Of a DNA stretch of 18,672 nucleotides, positions 2,891-14,135 are shown piece by piece. Below the pieces are notes generated by a model. It had not been told where the DNA came from and did not search any database. It saw only the letters and a program-made list of their open reading frames with translations. The DNA comes from Candidatus Hermodarchaeota archaeon (GTDB lineage: Archaea > Asgardarchaeota > Lokiarchaeia > Sigyniarchaeales > SOKP01). The stretch spans positions 1-18,672 of the forward strand of contig JBHLLO010000061.1 of the NCBI GenBank assembly GCA_048885535.1, written 5' to 3'. How positions within the stretch are numbered: position 1 is the first letter of the stretch; each line of letters starts with the position of its first letter. The position numbers were made by a program, and so were the translations under genes.

Positions 2891-3321
2891 TATTATAATA
2901 TAGCATTTATTATAGCCCCTAAAATGACTAAGGGAACCGATTATTATAATTTTAAATAGTTGTTAGAATTTGAATTCTTACATATTACTACATTATTTAA
3001 AGGAATTAACTATCTTTTGGAAAAAAAATAATTTTACCATTAAATGCAGGATTCTCATTTTTACCATCCTTTTCAAAATAGAAATAAAAACGACCAATTG
3101 AAGTATTCAACCTGAATTTAATCCTTTTTTTATTTATATTCGAAAATCTTTTCAATAAGATATTATTCCAATAAACACTCATTAATATTGCTTAAAACAA
3201 TTGATTAAAAAATAGACATCTTATGAAGATGTTATAACTCTATCAAACAGTACTGATTTCCATCTATATTCAGCAAAAAATAAATGGAAAGAATCATTCA
3301 ATTAATATAATCATTTATTTA

Positions 3322-3339
3322 TTAATGAGTCCTCATTAA
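3322..3339. promoter_or_regulatory. Perfect palindrome TTAATGAG-tc-CTCATTAA, candidate operator between the divergent ArsA/Get3 and dnaG genes
   Basis: 8-bp arms at 3322-3329 and 3332-3339 with a 2-nt spacer, about 100 bp upstream of dnaG. Confidence 0.4.
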
Positions 3340-3438
3340 AAATCAAAAAAGTAAAACTAAATTAAAAATCATAAATTCAAATTATATTATTTGAAATTGT
3401 TAAAGATCATAAATAATATTTAATAATAAAATACGGAA

Positions 3439-4660
3439 GTGATCAAGATTACCAATAATCAAGTAGATTTTACAACAAAATATATTATTGAAGCTAAATT
3501 TGAAATTAAGGGAGTGGTTGAAAAGAGCGATATAGTCGGCGCCATATTTGGTCAAAGATAATAAAGTAAGCCAGTTCGGCTCAATCGGCTAAACAGAGGG
3601 TCTCCTTTTAGATCTTGATTTAAGAGATCTTCAAAAATCAGGACGAATCGGAAGAATCGAAGTAGAAAACGAATCTAAGGAAGGACTTTCTATAGGTATT
3701 ATTAAAATTCCATCTTCTTTAACTAGGAAGGAGACTGCTTTATTGGCGGCGACTGTTGAGACGGTCACTCGTGTAGGTCCATGTGAAGCACATATTAAAT
3801 TAATTGAAATTAGAGATGTAAGAGAGACTAAGCGTAAAAAAATAATAGAACGGGCAGCAGAATTACTAAAAGAATGGGATCAAAAATCGCTTGAGCCTAG
3901 TGAAATTGAAGAAAAAATTGACATGGACATCAAACTCGGTGAAATAATAAAATGGGGTCCTGAGAAATTGCCTGCAGGACCAGAAGTTGAAAGTAACGAT
4001 GAATTAATCATTGTAGAGGGCCGTGCAGATGTCCTAAATTTATTAAGAATAGATATTAAAAACTGTATTGCTGTTCAAGGAACACATATCCCTAAATCAG
4101 TGGTAGATCTAGCAAAAAGAAAAAAAGTCGTTACAGTCTTCTCTGATGGAGATCGTGGTGGTGAACTCATAATAAAAGAATTAATGCAGTTGGTAAAAAT
4201 TGATTTTATTGCACGAGCACCTGAGGGTTATGAAGTTGAGGAATTAACAAGAAAACAACTTATAAAGTCTCTTCAAAATAAAAAACCAACAACAGAACCA
4301 TTAGAAACGTTAAAAGTCTCTCCTGTTAAAGAAAAAAAACCTACAGAAACAACAATTAGCAAGCTACTTAAAAAGCTTAAAGTTAAAAACCAAAACTTAA
4401 TAACTGATGCATTGAATACAATTCCTTCGGGTTACAGTATAGGATTTAATAACAAACTTGAAAAATTATTCGAACTCCCTGTAGGGGCGCTATTTGAGGA
4501 GATTATTAAATACAATAAAACTGAATTTTTACTTATTGATGGTATCTTAACTAAACGTCTACTTTCTGAAGCTTTAAAAATGAAAATAAAATTCATTGCT
4601 TGTAAAAATAAAGAGGAAGAATTAAATATTCCAGAGCACGTAGCTATTTATTATTTTTAA
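3439..4660 (+). CDS. dnaG: Archaeal DnaG (TOPRIM, exosome-associated primase-like protein); split gene join(3439..3555,3593..4660), about 394 aa
   Basis: Exon 1 reads (M)IKITNNQVDFTTKYIIEAKFEIKGVVEKSDIVGAIFGQ. Exon 2 reads TEGLLLDLDLRDLQKSGRIGRIEVE...IPSSLTRKETALLAATVETVTRVGPC, in frame with the 3743..4660 ORF (TOPRIM motifs VEGRADV and DGDRGG). The supplied ORF is only the C-terminal part. Confidence 0.93.
3556..3592 (+). other. Putative 37-nt bulge-helix-bulge-type mRNA intron in dnaG
   Basis: The insertion contains TAA TAA in the exon 1 frame and is not a multiple of 3. Central helix GGUC(3550-3553)/GGCU(3587-3590), bulges AAA(3554-3556) and AAA(3591-3593), inner helix GAU/AUC. Cutting after the second bulge nucleotide on each strand gives CAA|ACA (Q|T). 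Confidence 0.75.
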
Positions 4661-4684
4661 GAGTATCATATTTCAATTCTTTTT

Positions 4685-5107
4685 TTAAAATGTTTCTTGA
4701 CATTCAACATGTATAGGGATACCGTTTATCAGAGGATCTGAAACTACGCAATATTGTTTGAATTTTTTTTTACACATCTCAACTTTTTCTTTTGAAGATA
4801 TGTCTTCTAACATATATAAAAGTCTAATATCAACTTTTACCAATCTCAATCTCAAAGTTGGGCTTTTATGGGTTATTTTTCCATCTACAATTATTTCTAA
4901 ATTTTTGATTCTTATACCATTTTTATTTAAACAAAACATAAAACTACTTCCCAAACACCCTCCGATGCCAATTAAAAGATACTCGACTGGACTTGGTCCT
5001 AAATTTGTACCATGAAACGATCTAGGCTCATCTAGATCAAGGTTTTCGAAATTTCTTGCAGCTGCTTTAAAATGAAGATTTTCTATATGGTTTAGTTTTA
5101 CTTGCAT
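4685..5107 (-). CDS. OsmC/YhfA family protein
   Basis: DEP..HG.NLGPSPVEYLL.GIGGC and a second Cys in QYCVVS. Confidence 0.9.
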   Translation of the reverse strand: MQVKLNHIENLHFKAAARNFENLDLDEPRSFHGTNLGPSPVEYLLIGIGGCLGSSFMFCLNKNGIRIKNLEIIVDGKITHKSPTLRLRLVKVDIRLLYMLEDISSKEKVEMCKKKFKQYCVVSDPLINGIPIHVECQETF

Positions 5108-10367: not shown

Positions 10368-11162
10368 TTATTTGATTTTAGCTAATATTCCTTTCGATTT
10401 TAACAAATTAAAATACTTTTTTACATGTTTATTTCGATTCTTTTCACTTAAACCATTTATGTACTCACTACTAATCCTATAATCGGCGTATCGACCCTCA
10501 GGGGGTTCTTCTAAATAAAGCTTCGGGCTCCGCTTTAGTCCAAATATTAACATAACAAATAAAAAAATTACTGAAAAAAGATACCAACCATCTAAATTTA
10601 AATTCTGAAAAAAAATACAGATTTGAAAAAAACAGATTAGTATTATTGTAATAATAACAGCAACATAACCTATTTTGCATATTAATGTTTTTCGATATCT
10701 AACATCCCAATATCGACCATGATAACCATCTGAGGTACTTCGAAATAAATTAATATAAAGGGCAAATCGTTCTTTTTTCCAGGGAATTTTTCCCCACATT
10801 ATTCCATCTCCCGATGAAATCGAATCAAAAGTAAAGTGCCCTATATAAATACCTATAACAGGAACTAGGAAATATTCAATATATAAATTAAAAATAATAC
10901 TGAATCCTAAGGCGATAATCAAAGGAGTGTAACTTAAGGGCCAGTGAGTCCAATAATGAAAATGATGTTGATATCCTGTACTAGAATTTTTTGCTTTTCG
11001 GTTTTTAATAATCCAATATAATGTATCAAAATCAGGAAATATTCCGAAAAAAATTATTAAAAGCGTGAGGAGCGAGGGTAAGATAAAAATTTTTTTCCAT
11101 ATCACAAAAACTAAGTAATAGACTAAAAATGAGTAGGCGCCATGTTGTTCAGGTCTAGACAT
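10368..11162 (-). CDS. Membrane-bound metal-dependent hydrolase (YdjM-like)
   Basis: N-terminal His, FPDFD, HH...THW and GHFTFD motifs with TM helices. Confidence 0.7.
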   Translation of the reverse strand: MSRPEQHGAYSFLVYYLVFVIWKKIFILPSLLTLLIIFFGIFPDFDTLYWIIKNRKAKNSSTGYQHHFHYWTHWPLSYTPLIIALGFSIIFNLYIEYFLVPVIGIYIGHFTFDSISSGDGIMWGKIPWKKERFALYINLFRSTSDGYHGRYWDVRYRKTLICKIGYVAVIITIILICFFQICIFFQNLNLDGWYLFSVIFLFVMLIFGLKRSPKLYLEEPPEGRYADYRISSEYINGLSEKNRNKHVKKYFNLLKSKGILAKIK

Positions 11163-13460: not shown

Positions 13461-14135
13461 ATGGTATTAAATTTATTTTTAGTAGATTGTGGATTAGAAC
13501 TTATTCCTAAAGAAATTAGAGATCATCCTTCTGTAAAAAAAAATATTAAAAGTAAGAATTATTCCTCCCAAGTTCTAGATAATTCATTACACCACTCTGC
13601 CATGGTTAAATTAAATAATTTCGGAAAGAGAGGTCGTCCAGATATTCTTCATAATTGCCTTCTTAATGCACTTGGATCTCCATTAAACAAAAACAATCTA
13701 TTAAAAATTTACTTTCATACAATCAATAATCGATTTTTTGAATTAAATCCTGAGATAAGGATATCACGTAATTATAATAGATTTAAAGGTCTAATTGCCA
13801 AGTTATTAATAGATGGGAGCATACAATTTGAGGATAATTTTCTAATTAAAGAAATTGAAACAGAACTAGGAGATATGATAAATTCAATTAAAAATAGAGA
13901 GATTTTTTTGTTCTCAAGCAAAGGTATTCTAATCCAGCGCCACTTAGATTTATTCCATAGAAATTTATCGAAGAACTACATTGCAGTAATAGGAGGTTTC
14001 CAAAAAGGTACTTTTTCAAAAGAAATCTTAGAATTAAGTAATAATCTAATCTCAATTTCCCAATATGCATTAGATGCTTGGATTGTTGTAAATAAAGTTA
14101 TTAGTTTTTATGAAATTATTAATAATATAAAATGA
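13461..14135 (+). CDS. nep1: Nep1/Emg1 SPOUT rRNA pseudouridine methyltransferase
   Basis: LDNSLHHSAM, KRGRPDILH..LLNALGSPLNK, RNYNRFKGL and IGGFQKG motifs. Confidence 0.95.
   Translation: MVLNLFLVDCGLELIPKEIRDHPSVKKNIKSKNYSSQVLDNSLHHSAMVKLNNFGKRGRPDILHNCLLNALGSPLNKNNLLKIYFHTINNRFFELNPEIRISRNYNRFKGLIAKLLIDGSIQFEDNFLIKEIETELGDMINSIKNREIFLFSSKGILIQRHLDLFHRNLSKNYIAVIGGFQKGTFSKEILELSNNLISISQYALDAWIVVNKVISFYEIINNIK

What the first reader, a model, noticed from the sequence alone, without database searches (positions are those of the whole stretch)
3541..3601. Candidate BHB-spliced mRNA intron interrupting the conserved GAIFGQ|TEGL motif of dnaG
Seen: the DnaG N-terminus (3439-3555) and the remainder (3593-4660) are in different frames, separated by 37 nt (AGATAATAAAGTAAGCCAGTTCGGCTCAATCGGCTAA) containing TAA TAA. 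Both halves are otherwise intact. Seen: the junctions can pair as a 4-bp central helix GGUC(3550-3553)/GGCU(3587-3590) (G-U, G-C, U-G, C-G), each strand followed by a 3-nt AAA bulge, with an inner helix GAU(3557-3559)/AUC(3584-3586). The outer exon-exon helix is weak (UUU/AGA with C3594 unpaired, then GCC/GGU), so this is a relaxed BHB/BHL. Established: the archaeal splicing endonuclease EndA cuts after the second nucleotide of each bulge and RtcB ligates; applied here this gives exactly ...GGU CAA|ACA GAG... (GQ|TE). Archaeal mRNA introns of this type are rare, the classic example being crenarchaeal cbf5. Inference: this is a spliced protein-coding gene in a probable Asgard archaeon, which standard annotation would call truncated or a pseudogene. 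It could mark a wider set of overlooked micro-introns.
Basis: partly seen in the sequence, partly recalled or inferred. Interest (0 to 1): 0.95.

Follow-up and report, generated by a model that had tools for sequence, protein, structure and literature searches.

The report
Spliced micro-intron in archaeal dnaG
A 37-base insert that breaks the dnaG gene of this Asgard (Loki-type) archaeon has the shape of an intron removed by the cell's tRNA-splicing enzymes, a kind of intron very rarely seen in archaeal protein genes, and related genomes support that reading.

Summary
dnaG is split at GAIFGQ|TEGL by 37 nt (3556-3592) that carry stop codons, and the junctions can form the described bulge-helix-bulge (BHB).

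The single sequence proves little. Its minimum-energy fold lacks the BHB (z -0.86), and BHB-like pairings at ORF junctions are common in this genome.

The evidence is comparative:
- An insert of 29-43 nt sits at exactly this site in 53 dnaG loci, while other close relatives are precisely intact.
- The 4-bp central helix pairs in all 46 distinct sequences. The third base of the Gly codon covaries with the intron (CG 28, AU 7, UG 6, GC 3, GU 2).
- Only the canonical cut, after bulge nucleotide 2, restores FGQTEGL in 53 of 53.
- Both exons are under purifying selection.
- The genome has two EndA paralogues (crenarchaeal alpha-beta type) and RtcB.

A scan of the genome found a second such intron (30 nt) in a deoA-like phosphorylase gene. 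It shows the same kind of covariation in 34 loci. Relatives also carry BHB inserts at two other dnaG sites.

No RNA data could be obtained, so splicing itself is inferred. I found no report of this in print. Verdict: new members of the known cbf5-type class, first in Asgard archaea, and of high interest.

The parts
3439..3555 (+). dnaG exon 1: 39 codons, GTG start to CAA (Gln), ending ...GAIFGQ
   Evidence: Conserved in relatives with pN 0.133 against pS 0.689 (mean of 1326 pairs). No stop in 52 of 52 loci.
3547..3549 (+). 5' strand of the weak outer (exon-exon) helix h: the Phe codon UUU, pairing with GAG 3596-3598
   Evidence: helix columns 7-12/65-70 paired in 89.5% of cells. The pairs are largely forced by the Phe/Glu codons and are offset by 2 nt from bulge 2, so this is a relaxed motif.
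3550..3553 (+). Central helix H, 5' strand (GGUC: Gly codon plus the first base of the Gln codon)
   Evidence: Pairs with 3587-3590. 4 of 4 pairs in 53 of 53 loci. 100% of cells paired in 46 distinct sequences.
3554..3556 (+). Bulge 1 (AAA). Predicted 5' cut between 3555 and 3556.
   Evidence: Register test.
3556..3592 (+). 37-nt intron with a stop codon in the exon-1 frame at its second codon
   Evidence: Homologous inserts of 29-43 nt in 53 loci, lengths mod 3 = 1 (31), 2 (18), 0 (4). All 53 meet a stop if read through.
3557..3559 (+). Inner helix h', 5' strand (GAU), pairing with AUC 3584-3586
   Evidence: 93.5% of cells paired. One pair changes on both sides (UA to CG) in one sequence.
3569..3581 (+). 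Small hairpin inside the intron (AGCC / loop of 5 / GGCU)
   Evidence: present in the MFE and in the BHB-constrained fold. Equivalent hairpins in relatives.
3584..3586 (+). Inner helix h', 3' strand (AUC)
3587..3590 (+). Central helix H', 3' strand (GGCU), inside the intron
   Evidence: Its second base covaries with the third base of the Gly codon.
3591..3593 (+). Bulge 2 (AAA). Predicted 3' cut between 3592 and 3593.
   Evidence: Register test.
3593..4660 (+). dnaG exon 2: 355 codons plus stop, TEGLLLDLDLR..., Toprim domain
   Evidence: Exons 1 and 2 together give 394 codons, the commonest length of intact relatives (394 aa). The first possible start codon in this frame is TTG at 3743.

Best explanation
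The 37 nt at 3556-3592 are a bulge-helix-bulge (BHB) intron in the dnaG pre-mRNA.

Proposed mechanism:
1. The last bases of exon 1 (GGUC) pair with the last bases of the intron before its final AA (GGCU). This forms the 4-bp central helix.
2. The helix is flanked on opposite strands by two 3-nt AAA bulges. The intron body closes the motif with a short helix (GAU/AUC) and a hairpin.
3. The outer exon-exon helix is weak and offset, so this is the relaxed HBh' form.
4. The splicing endonuclease, here two EndA paralogues of the crenarchaeal alpha-beta type, cuts after the second nucleotide of each bulge.
5. RtcB joins the exons, giving CAA|ACA and a 394-codon DnaG with an intact GAIFGQTEGL motif.
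6. Unspliced mRNA would yield only a 40-residue peptide.

Shown here: the anatomy, conservation of the site, covariation, the cut register, selection on both exons, and presence of the enzymes.

Inferred: that cleavage and ligation occur in the cell, that the two EndA proteins form a heterotetramer, and any regulatory role.
For: Same-site inserts. Inserts occur in 53 dnaG loci: 52 in the window's family, including the window itself, and 1 in a second family of the order. 25 sequence-checked relatives of the same family are precisely intact.

Central helix. It is 4 of 4 paired in 53 of 53 loci. On 46 distinct sequences it is 100% paired. Pair 15-57 reads CG 28, AU 7, UG 6, GC 3, GU 2 with none unpaired. 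The whole structure is 93.6% paired, against 30-58% when the partner is slid by 1-3 columns. 0 of 500 shuffles reach the covariation score.

Cut register. The canonical cut restores FGQTEGL in 53 of 53. Shifts of -1, -2 and +1 restore it in 52, 51 and 43.

No simple frameshift. Insert lengths fall in all three classes mod 3, and all 53 meet a stop if unspliced.

Selection. Exon 1 has mean pN 0.133 against pS 0.689. Neither exon has a stop in 52 of 52 loci.

Copy number. There is a single dnaG in the genome.

Enzymes. There are two EndA-family genes, each with both Pfam domains. One is closest to crenarchaeal EndA chains and keeps Tyr/His/Lys in the alignment. The other is diverged. RtcB is present. 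Published work states that Asgard archaea have (alpha-beta)2 EndA with the L1 loop, and that only (alpha-beta)2 and epsilon2 enzymes cut relaxed motifs (PMC5829648, passages read).

Independent second case. A 30-nt insert splits a deoA-like gene at DKHS-T|GG. It has same-site inserts in 34 loci, all with 4 of 4 central pairs, C-G to U-A covariation, and hairpins full of compensatory changes. The canonical register is the only one that also works for dnaG.

Further BHB inserts in dnaG of relatives. There are 4 loci at a site 18 nt upstream, 1 locus at IVE|KPD, and 3 loci of another class at GQ|LE.
Against: There is no RNA evidence: no RNA run was listed, so no reads were laid.

Thermodynamics does not favour the motif. 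The MFE of the window sequence lacks it. The BHB is part of the MFE in only 5 of 53 loci, and the median cost of imposing the central helix is 2.9 kcal/mol.

The outer helix is weak, is offset by two nt and is confounded by codon constraints. In sequences with UUU, the AAA of bulge 2 could instead pair with it.

Some relatives have imperfect helices. The inner helix h' is poor in one genus. The central helix H is 3 of 4 in L038, L141 and L142.

Related sequences are not independent, so shuffle statistics overstate significance.

The rule that EndA cuts after the second bulge nucleotide, and the chain identities of the PDB hits, are recalled knowledge and not outputs of a call.
Confidence: 0.85

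Rival explanations
1. Translational recoding: the ribosome bypasses (hops over) the insert, as at phage T4 gene 60, or shifts frame, so no RNA splicing is needed.
For: A stop codon follows the exon-1 end within one to three codons and a hairpin lies in the gap. These features superficially recall the T4 gene 60 gap (recalled).
Against: There are no matching take-off and landing codons. The codon before the gap is CAA/CAG, while the triplet before the resume codon is TAA, TAT, TAG or TTA. In deoA the junction lies inside a codon. Gap lengths vary from 29 to 43 nt in all three frames, so no single frameshift works. The covariation links exon bases with the 3' end of the insert in exactly the BHB geometry, which bypass does not predict.
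Confidence: 0.04
2. The insert is never removed. dnaG is a split or N-terminally truncated gene: a 40-residue peptide plus a shorter DnaG from an internal start. The insert would be a tolerated mini-insertion.
For: This is how public annotation reads such genes (305-351 aa 'DNA primase DnaG'). A TTG exists at 3743.
Against: Exon 2 has no start codon at its 5' end. The first is 50 codons in, past the conserved TEGLL...GRIGR block. Exon 1 is under purifying selection in intron-bearing lineages, so it is still translated as part of something useful. The break falls inside a motif that is contiguous in all intact relatives. An unremoved insertion would not need its 3' end to covary with the Gly codon.
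Confidence: 0.06
3. Pseudogene: dnaG has been inactivated by an insertion and is decaying.
For: There is an in-frame stop and a frame change in the raw sequence.
Against: It is the only dnaG in a 91.6%-complete genome. There are no further stops or frameshifts in 52 of 52 loci, and pN is far below pS in both exons. The same interruption is kept across at least eight genera.
Confidence: 0.03
4. Assembly or sequencing artefact.
For: The genome is a draft of 112 contigs.
Against: Homologous inserts occur at the same site in 52 other, independently assembled genomes, with sequence divergence and compensatory changes.
Confidence: 0.01

Closest known systems
cbf5 pre-mRNA intron of Crenarchaeota (Watanabe 2002; Yokobori 2009, PMC2738675, passages read)
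   Same: A short BHB-type intron inside a protein-coding frame, often in the relaxed motif form. It occurs in lineages with a hetero-oligomeric EndA, shows a patchy presence/absence pattern read as gain and loss, and must be removed for a functional protein.
   Different: The host genes are different (dnaG and a deoA-like gene). cbf5 of this genome is uninterrupted (one 341-aa frame). The phylum is different (Asgard). There are several insertion sites within one gene, and there are signs of recent transfer together with flanking exon sequence. Splicing of cbf5 was shown experimentally; here it was not.
BHB intron in the 5' UTR of HVO_1309 mRNA, Haloferax volcanii (PMC7714728, passages read)
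   Same: An mRNA substrate of the tRNA splicing endonuclease outside tRNA and rRNA.
   Different: It lies in the untranslated leader, not in the reading frame. The organism has a homodimeric-type EndA (recalled). It was verified in vivo and in vitro.
Non-canonical tRNA introns of TACK and Asgard archaea (PMC5829648; bioRxiv 10.64898/2026.10.13.758758, abstract start and one passage seen)
   Same: The same motif grammar (hBHBh', HBh'), the same size range and the same enzymes. ARAGORN calls an intron in 23 of 34 tRNA genes of this genome.
   Different: The host is an mRNA, so the exon side of the helices is built from codons. The preprint has no occurrence of 'mRNA', 'dnaG' or 'primase'.
HAC1/XBP1 unconventional mRNA splicing in eukaryotes (recalled; RtcB role mentioned in reference lists and abstracts seen)
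   Same: Spliceosome-independent removal of a short mRNA intron by an endonuclease plus an RtcB-type ligase, changing the reading frame.
   Different: The endonuclease is Ire1 acting on paired stem-loops, not EndA on a BHB, and the splicing is stress-regulated. No relation of descent is claimed.

Membership tests
Archaeal BHB (EndA/RtcB-spliced) intron | Two 3-nt bulges on opposite strands separated by a 4-bp helix at the exon-intron borders | tested here: met
   Window: GGUC/GGCU with AAA bulges. 53 of 53 loci have 4 of 4 pairs with 3-nt bulges.
Archaeal BHB (EndA/RtcB-spliced) intron | Flanking helices h (outer) and h' (inner) | tested here: inconclusive
   h' is present (93.5% of cells paired). 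h is weak, offset by 2 nt and codon-constrained. This fits the relaxed HBh' form described in PMC5829648.
Archaeal BHB (EndA/RtcB-spliced) intron | Helices supported by compensatory change | tested here: met
   One central pair shows five pair types and no unpaired case in 46 sequences. 0 of 500 shuffles reach the score, and slid controls give 30-58% paired. deoA shows the same.
Archaeal BHB (EndA/RtcB-spliced) intron | Cuts at the canonical bulge positions give a functional product | tested here: met
   53 of 53 dnaG loci and 34 of 34 deoA loci restore the conserved motif. No other single register does so for both genes.
Archaeal BHB (EndA/RtcB-spliced) intron | Genome encodes splicing endonuclease and RtcB ligase | tested here: met
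Archaeal BHB (EndA/RtcB-spliced) intron | Excision and exon ligation observed in RNA | not testable with these tools
   No RNA run was listed, and read laying was not usable.
(alpha-beta)2 heterotetrameric EndA with broad specificity | Two separate paralogous subunits, one catalytic and one structural | tested here: met
   There are two genes of 200 and 205 aa, each with PF02778 and PF01974. The first aligns over 179 residues to a crenarchaeal EndA chain with Y/H/K kept. The second is diverged and has no His at that place. Assembly into a tetramer was not tested.
Translational bypass (T4 gene 60 type) | Matching take-off and landing codons flanking the gap | tested here: not met
   CAA/CAG before the gap against TAA/TAT/TAG/TTA before the resume codon. 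The deoA junction is inside a codon.
Self-splicing group I / group II introns or any Rfam family | Match to a curated RNA family; size of hundreds of nt | tested here: not met
   No Rfam match at E up to 1 in 3300-3800, and none at gathering score in the whole window. The insert is 37 nt.

The most novel reading that the evidence does not exclude
BHB micro-introns form a small, mobile population in protein-coding genes of Asgard archaea. They have entered dnaG at three or more sites and a deoA-like gene. They are gained and lost repeatedly, and they move between lineages together with a few dozen bases of flanking exon by recombination.

Hints:
- At least 14 state changes are needed on the DnaG tree, and the four site-2 introns sit in four separate clades.
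- A site-2 intron is 28 of 30 identical between two genera whose genes are 494 of 694 identical.
- That intron's carrier is 663 of 694 identical to an intronless sister over the rest of the gene, but only 80 of 97 and 85 of 94 next to the intron.

If true, the closest prokaryotic relatives of eukaryotes already splice introns out of mRNAs with the tRNA machinery and tolerate intron turnover in essential genes.
Probability: 0.4. Interest if true: 0.92.

Novelty: new member of a known kind. Interest (0 to 1): 0.8.

Why it matters
In the passages I read (PMC7714728), BHB introns in archaeal mRNAs amount to cbf5 of Crenarchaeota plus one 5'-UTR case in Haloferax.

This work adds two more host genes, several sites, and dozens of natural variants that act as a ready-made mutational series. 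They lie in Asgard archaea, the lineage closest to eukaryotes.

Consequences:
- Annotation pipelines currently report these essential genes as truncated. Gene calls and completeness estimates for such genomes are therefore slightly wrong.
- More split genes may be hidden in these genomes.
- The finding offers a testable system for how an EndA with relaxed specificity chooses mRNA substrates.
- It raises the question of how splicing coexists with coupled transcription-translation.
- It lets one ask how protein-gene introns are gained and lost in an archaeon.

Tried and rejected
Single-sequence folding gives no support for the BHB. I do not use it as evidence for.

RNA evidence: no RNA holder was listed for window 3300-4700.

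Intron as a repeat family: an nhmmer profile of the intron found only dnaG in the own genome (E 1.9e-8; the next hit was E 3.6). The intron is therefore not a multicopy element by sequence.

Genome-wide search for more mRNA introns: structure plus ORF logic alone is far too noisy, with 26,261 raw hits and 851 clusters whose pairing is stronger than dnaG's own.
- Narrow filters left 23 candidates and 119 candidates. By junction peptide and Pfam, only dnaG and the deoA-like gene were convincing.
- The rest I examined looked like neighbouring genes, for example thiolase/DUF35 and hydrogenase subunits.
- An actin-like hit on contig C58 is a false positive. Reading the printed bases by eye, its frame is open through the supposed intron from a TTG; this was not computed.

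deoA in genus g12: its shorter open frames (419-431 aa) are a shorter N-terminus, not another interruption.

Wider dnaG census:
- The phylum search lists only its best ~150 rows.
- Class-level searches cannot show N-terminal breaks where only part of the query matches.
- Four suspiciously short frames (L145-L148) and G162 proved intact.
- 'Not found' in those classes therefore means 'not found by a coarse screen'.

Lateral origin of the deoA intron in the window's genome:
- The last 30 nt of exon 1 look like intron-bearing alleles of another genus. I counted 2 differences against 7 by eye, including the Ser codon AGT against TCA.
- Over 91 nt the identities are equal (77 against 76).
- This is a weak hint only.

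Literature: searches found no paper on BHB introns in dnaG, in deoA or in Asgard protein genes.
Full report
WHAT IS IN THE WINDOW

A frame starts at GTG 3439 and reads VIKITNNQVDFTTKYIIEAKFEIKGVVEKSDIVGAIFGQ up to CAA 3553-3555, then meets AGA TAA. From ACA 3593 a different frame runs for 355 codons, TEGLLLDLDLRDLQKSGRIGRIEV... to the stop at 4658-4660, and carries Toprim domains. Between the two lie 37 nt.

The two pieces together make 394 codons. That is the commonest length of intact relatives in the protein search. The genome (3.09 Mb, 112 contigs, 91.6% complete) has no other dnaG.

The neighbours are ordinary archaeal housekeeping genes: ArsA/Get3-like ATPase, OsmC, FtsY, prefoldin, eIF6 and others. 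Sources name the relatives' proteins Promethearchaeota or Lokiarchaeota archaeon, so 'Asgard' is a fair label.

IS THE SINGLE SEQUENCE SIGNIFICANT? NO.

The minimum-energy fold of 3531-3612 does not contain the BHB and is no better than shuffles (z -0.86). The best fold that contains the central and inner helices is -8.8 against -10.5 kcal/mol. A crude scan for a 4-bp helix, 3-nt bulges and a 2-bp inner helix at ORF junctions gave 26,261 raw hits in this genome. The case therefore rests on comparison with relatives.

COMPARATIVE EVIDENCE AT THE SAME SITE

Searching relatives with exon 2 showed two classes of open frame: about 352-377 aa, and 392 aa or more. I read the DNA of 90 loci.

- 53 loci carry an insert of 29-43 nt exactly between the Gln codon and the Thr codon. 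52 are in the window's family, counting the window, across eight genera. One is in another family of the order.
- 25 loci of the same family and 7 of two other families are precisely intact at this site.
- The remaining family members with a full-length match have frames of 392 aa or more, like the intact ones. I did not read their DNA.

In all 53 loci the four bases before the last two exon bases pair with the four bases before the last two intron bases. The third base of the Gly codon is free to vary, and the intron follows it: GGUC/GGCU, GGCC/GGCU, GGGC/GCCU, GGGC/GUCU, GGAC/GUCU, GGAC/GUUU, GGAC/GUUC.

On an alignment of 46 distinct sequences, the count of structure pairs gave the following:
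- The central helix is 100% paired.
- One central pair reads CG 28, AU 7, UG 6, GC 3, GU 2, with none unpaired.
- The inner helix is 93.5% paired and the outer helix 89.5%.
- The whole structure is 93.6% paired, against 30-58% when the 3' partners are slid by 1-3 columns.
- 0 of 500 shuffles reach the covariation score.

These sequences are related, so the shuffles overstate. The slid controls and the number of pair types do not depend on that.

CUT REGISTER

If both cuts fall after the second bulge nucleotide, the product reads FGQTEGL in 53 of 53 loci. Shifting both cuts by -1, -2 or +1 gives it in 52, 51 and 43. The insert lengths are 1, 2 or 0 mod 3 in 31, 18 and 4 loci. Every locus meets a stop if read through. 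No single frameshift could rescue them.

NOT A PSEUDOGENE

Over 52 intron-bearing loci (one of the 53 lacked enough upstream DNA), the 32 codons before the insert have mean pN 0.133 and pS 0.689 (1326 pairs). Neither these codons nor the first 200 codons of exon 2 hold a stop.

THE ENZYMES

- The genome has two EndA-family genes of 200 and 205 aa, each with the N-terminal and catalytic Pfam domains.
- The first aligns over 179 residues with a crenarchaeal EndA chain and keeps the Tyr, His and Lys of the active site in that alignment. That these PDB entries are heterotetramers is recalled.
- The second is more diverged and has no His at that place.
- RtcB is present once.
- Kaneta et al. (PMC5829648; passages) state that Asgard archaea have the (alpha-beta)2 type with the L1 loop. 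They also state that only (alpha-beta)2 and epsilon2 enzymes cut the relaxed HBh', hBH and BHL forms.
- Here the 5' site is canonical (H, 3-nt bulge, h'). The 3' site has a weak, 2-nt-offset outer helix. That makes it an HBh' form.

A SECOND INTRON IN THE SAME GENOME

My scans were noisy, but one hit stood out. On contig C28 (minus strand; L093), a 180-codon ORF with the Glycos_trans_3N domain ends ...DVYDKHS. It is followed 30 nt later by a 336-codon frame, GGVPGNKVSL..., that matches Glycos_transf_3 from profile position 11 and PYNP_C. Removing 30 nt at the canonical positions gives DKHS-T-GGVPGNK, with the junction inside the Thr codon.

- 33 relatives in nine genera have an insert of 29-31 nt at the same place. 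In the window's own genus only this genome has it.
- All 34 loci have 4 of 4 central pairs.
- The third base of the His codon covaries with the last helix base of the intron (C with G, U with A).
- The intron body is a hairpin of up to 9 bp with many compensatory changes.
- Shifts 0 and +1 restore KHSTGGVP in 34 of 34; shift -1 does so in 2 of 34.
- Shift 0 is therefore the only register that works for both genes.

OTHER SITES IN dnaG

- Four relatives (three genera) lack the site-1 insert but have about 30 nt 18 nt upstream, inside EKSDI|VGA. Three pass a strict BHB scan that also requires the restored peptide. The fourth has a 4 of 4 central helix with a one-base offset in h', read by eye.
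- One genome of another order has a 37-nt insert at IVE|KPD with a perfect motif.
- Three genomes of another class have 31-34 nt at the site-1 position, giving GQ-L-EGL, with a U-A against C-G change in the helix.
- A coarse screen of two further classes and five checks by sequence found none.

GAIN, LOSS AND POSSIBLE MOBILITY (INFERENCE)

On a FastTree of 86 exon-2 proteins, the three states need at least 14 changes. The four site-2 introns sit in four separate clades. Intact genes are under-sampled in that tree.

One site-2 carrier (L038) is 663 of 694 identical to an intronless sister (L007) over most of the gene, but only 80 of 97 and 85 of 94 identical next to the intron. Its intron is 28 of 30 identical to that of a genus whose gene is 494 of 694 identical. 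That pattern looks like acquisition of the intron together with flanking exon sequence by recombination. It is a lead, not a result.

RIVALS

- Bypass or frameshift fails on the absence of matching codons, the mid-codon junction in deoA, and the variable lengths.
- A truly split or truncated DnaG fails on three points: there is no start codon at exon 2, exon 1 is under selection, and the covariation would be unexplained.
- A pseudogene and an assembly artefact fail.
- No Rfam family matches.

COMPARISON WITH WHAT IS KNOWN

The closest known case is the cbf5 pre-mRNA intron of Crenarchaeota. It shares the relaxed motif, the hetero-oligomeric EndA, and gain and loss (PMC2738675, passages). Schwarz et al. 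wrote in 2020 that cbf5 was the only such case besides their 5'-UTR intron in Haloferax (PMC7714728, passages). cbf5 of this genome is uninterrupted.

A 2026 preprint describes heavily interrupted Asgard tRNA genes but has no occurrence of mRNA, dnaG or primase. ARAGORN calls introns in 23 of 34 tRNA genes here. Six literature searches found nothing on BHB introns in Asgard protein genes. Supplements were closed and subscription journals are mostly absent from the library.

VERDICT

The one missing piece is RNA-level proof.

These are new members of a known kind: EndA/RtcB-spliced mRNA introns. They occur in new host genes and in a new, evolutionarily important phylum, with unusually rich natural variation. 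Interest 0.8.

Noticed in passing
Own genome, contig C28 minus strand; locus L093:1210-1239 (about G000:C28:21548-21577): A second BHB-type intron of 30 nt splits a deoA-like (AMP/thymidine phosphorylase family) gene at DKHS-T|GGVPGNK. Same-site inserts occur in 33 relatives with covariation. Within the window's own genus only this genome has it.
   Followed up: yes
Relatives: L038, L039, L044, L059 (site 2); L144 (site 3); L141-L143 (another class): dnaG of relatives carries BHB-like inserts at two other places in the first 40 codons, and at the same place in a distant class. The 5' end of dnaG therefore looks like a hot spot.
   Followed up: partly
L038 against L007 and L044: Mosaic pattern around a site-2 intron. 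The carrier is 95.5% identical to an intronless sister over 694 nt but 82-90% identical next to the intron. The intron is 28 of 30 identical to one in another genus. This suggests transfer with flanking exon sequence.
   Followed up: partly
Own genome, contig C28 minus strand, reverse-complement coordinates about 13,660-13,800: An MvhD-like frame (...GADGV / ...EGECDYETGN...NVKYTQEVL) appears interrupted by an in-frame stop. It could be a selenocysteine codon rather than an intron. The codon itself was not read.
   Followed up: no
Own genome, all contigs: ARAGORN finds 34 tRNA genes and calls an intron in 23 of them, several at odd positions. This is in line with the heavily interrupted Asgard tRNA genes described in a 2026 preprint.
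   Followed up: no
Genome G022: C91:4436-5491 and C40:2655-3710: There are two dnaG copies in one assembly, one with the site-1 intron and one with a 413-aa open frame. Contamination of this assembly is given as 6%, so this may be two strains rather than paralogues.
   Followed up: no
window 10368-11162 (-): A 264-residue ORF has no Pfam family at E up to 1e-4.
   Followed up: no
Site-1 introns of all 53 loci: A stop codon in the exon-1 frame lies at about the first to third codon of the listed introns (AGA TAA, AGG TAA, AGA TGA, TGA ...; listing, read by eye and not counted). Whether this early stop matters, for example by keeping ribosomes off the motif, is unknown.
   Followed up: no
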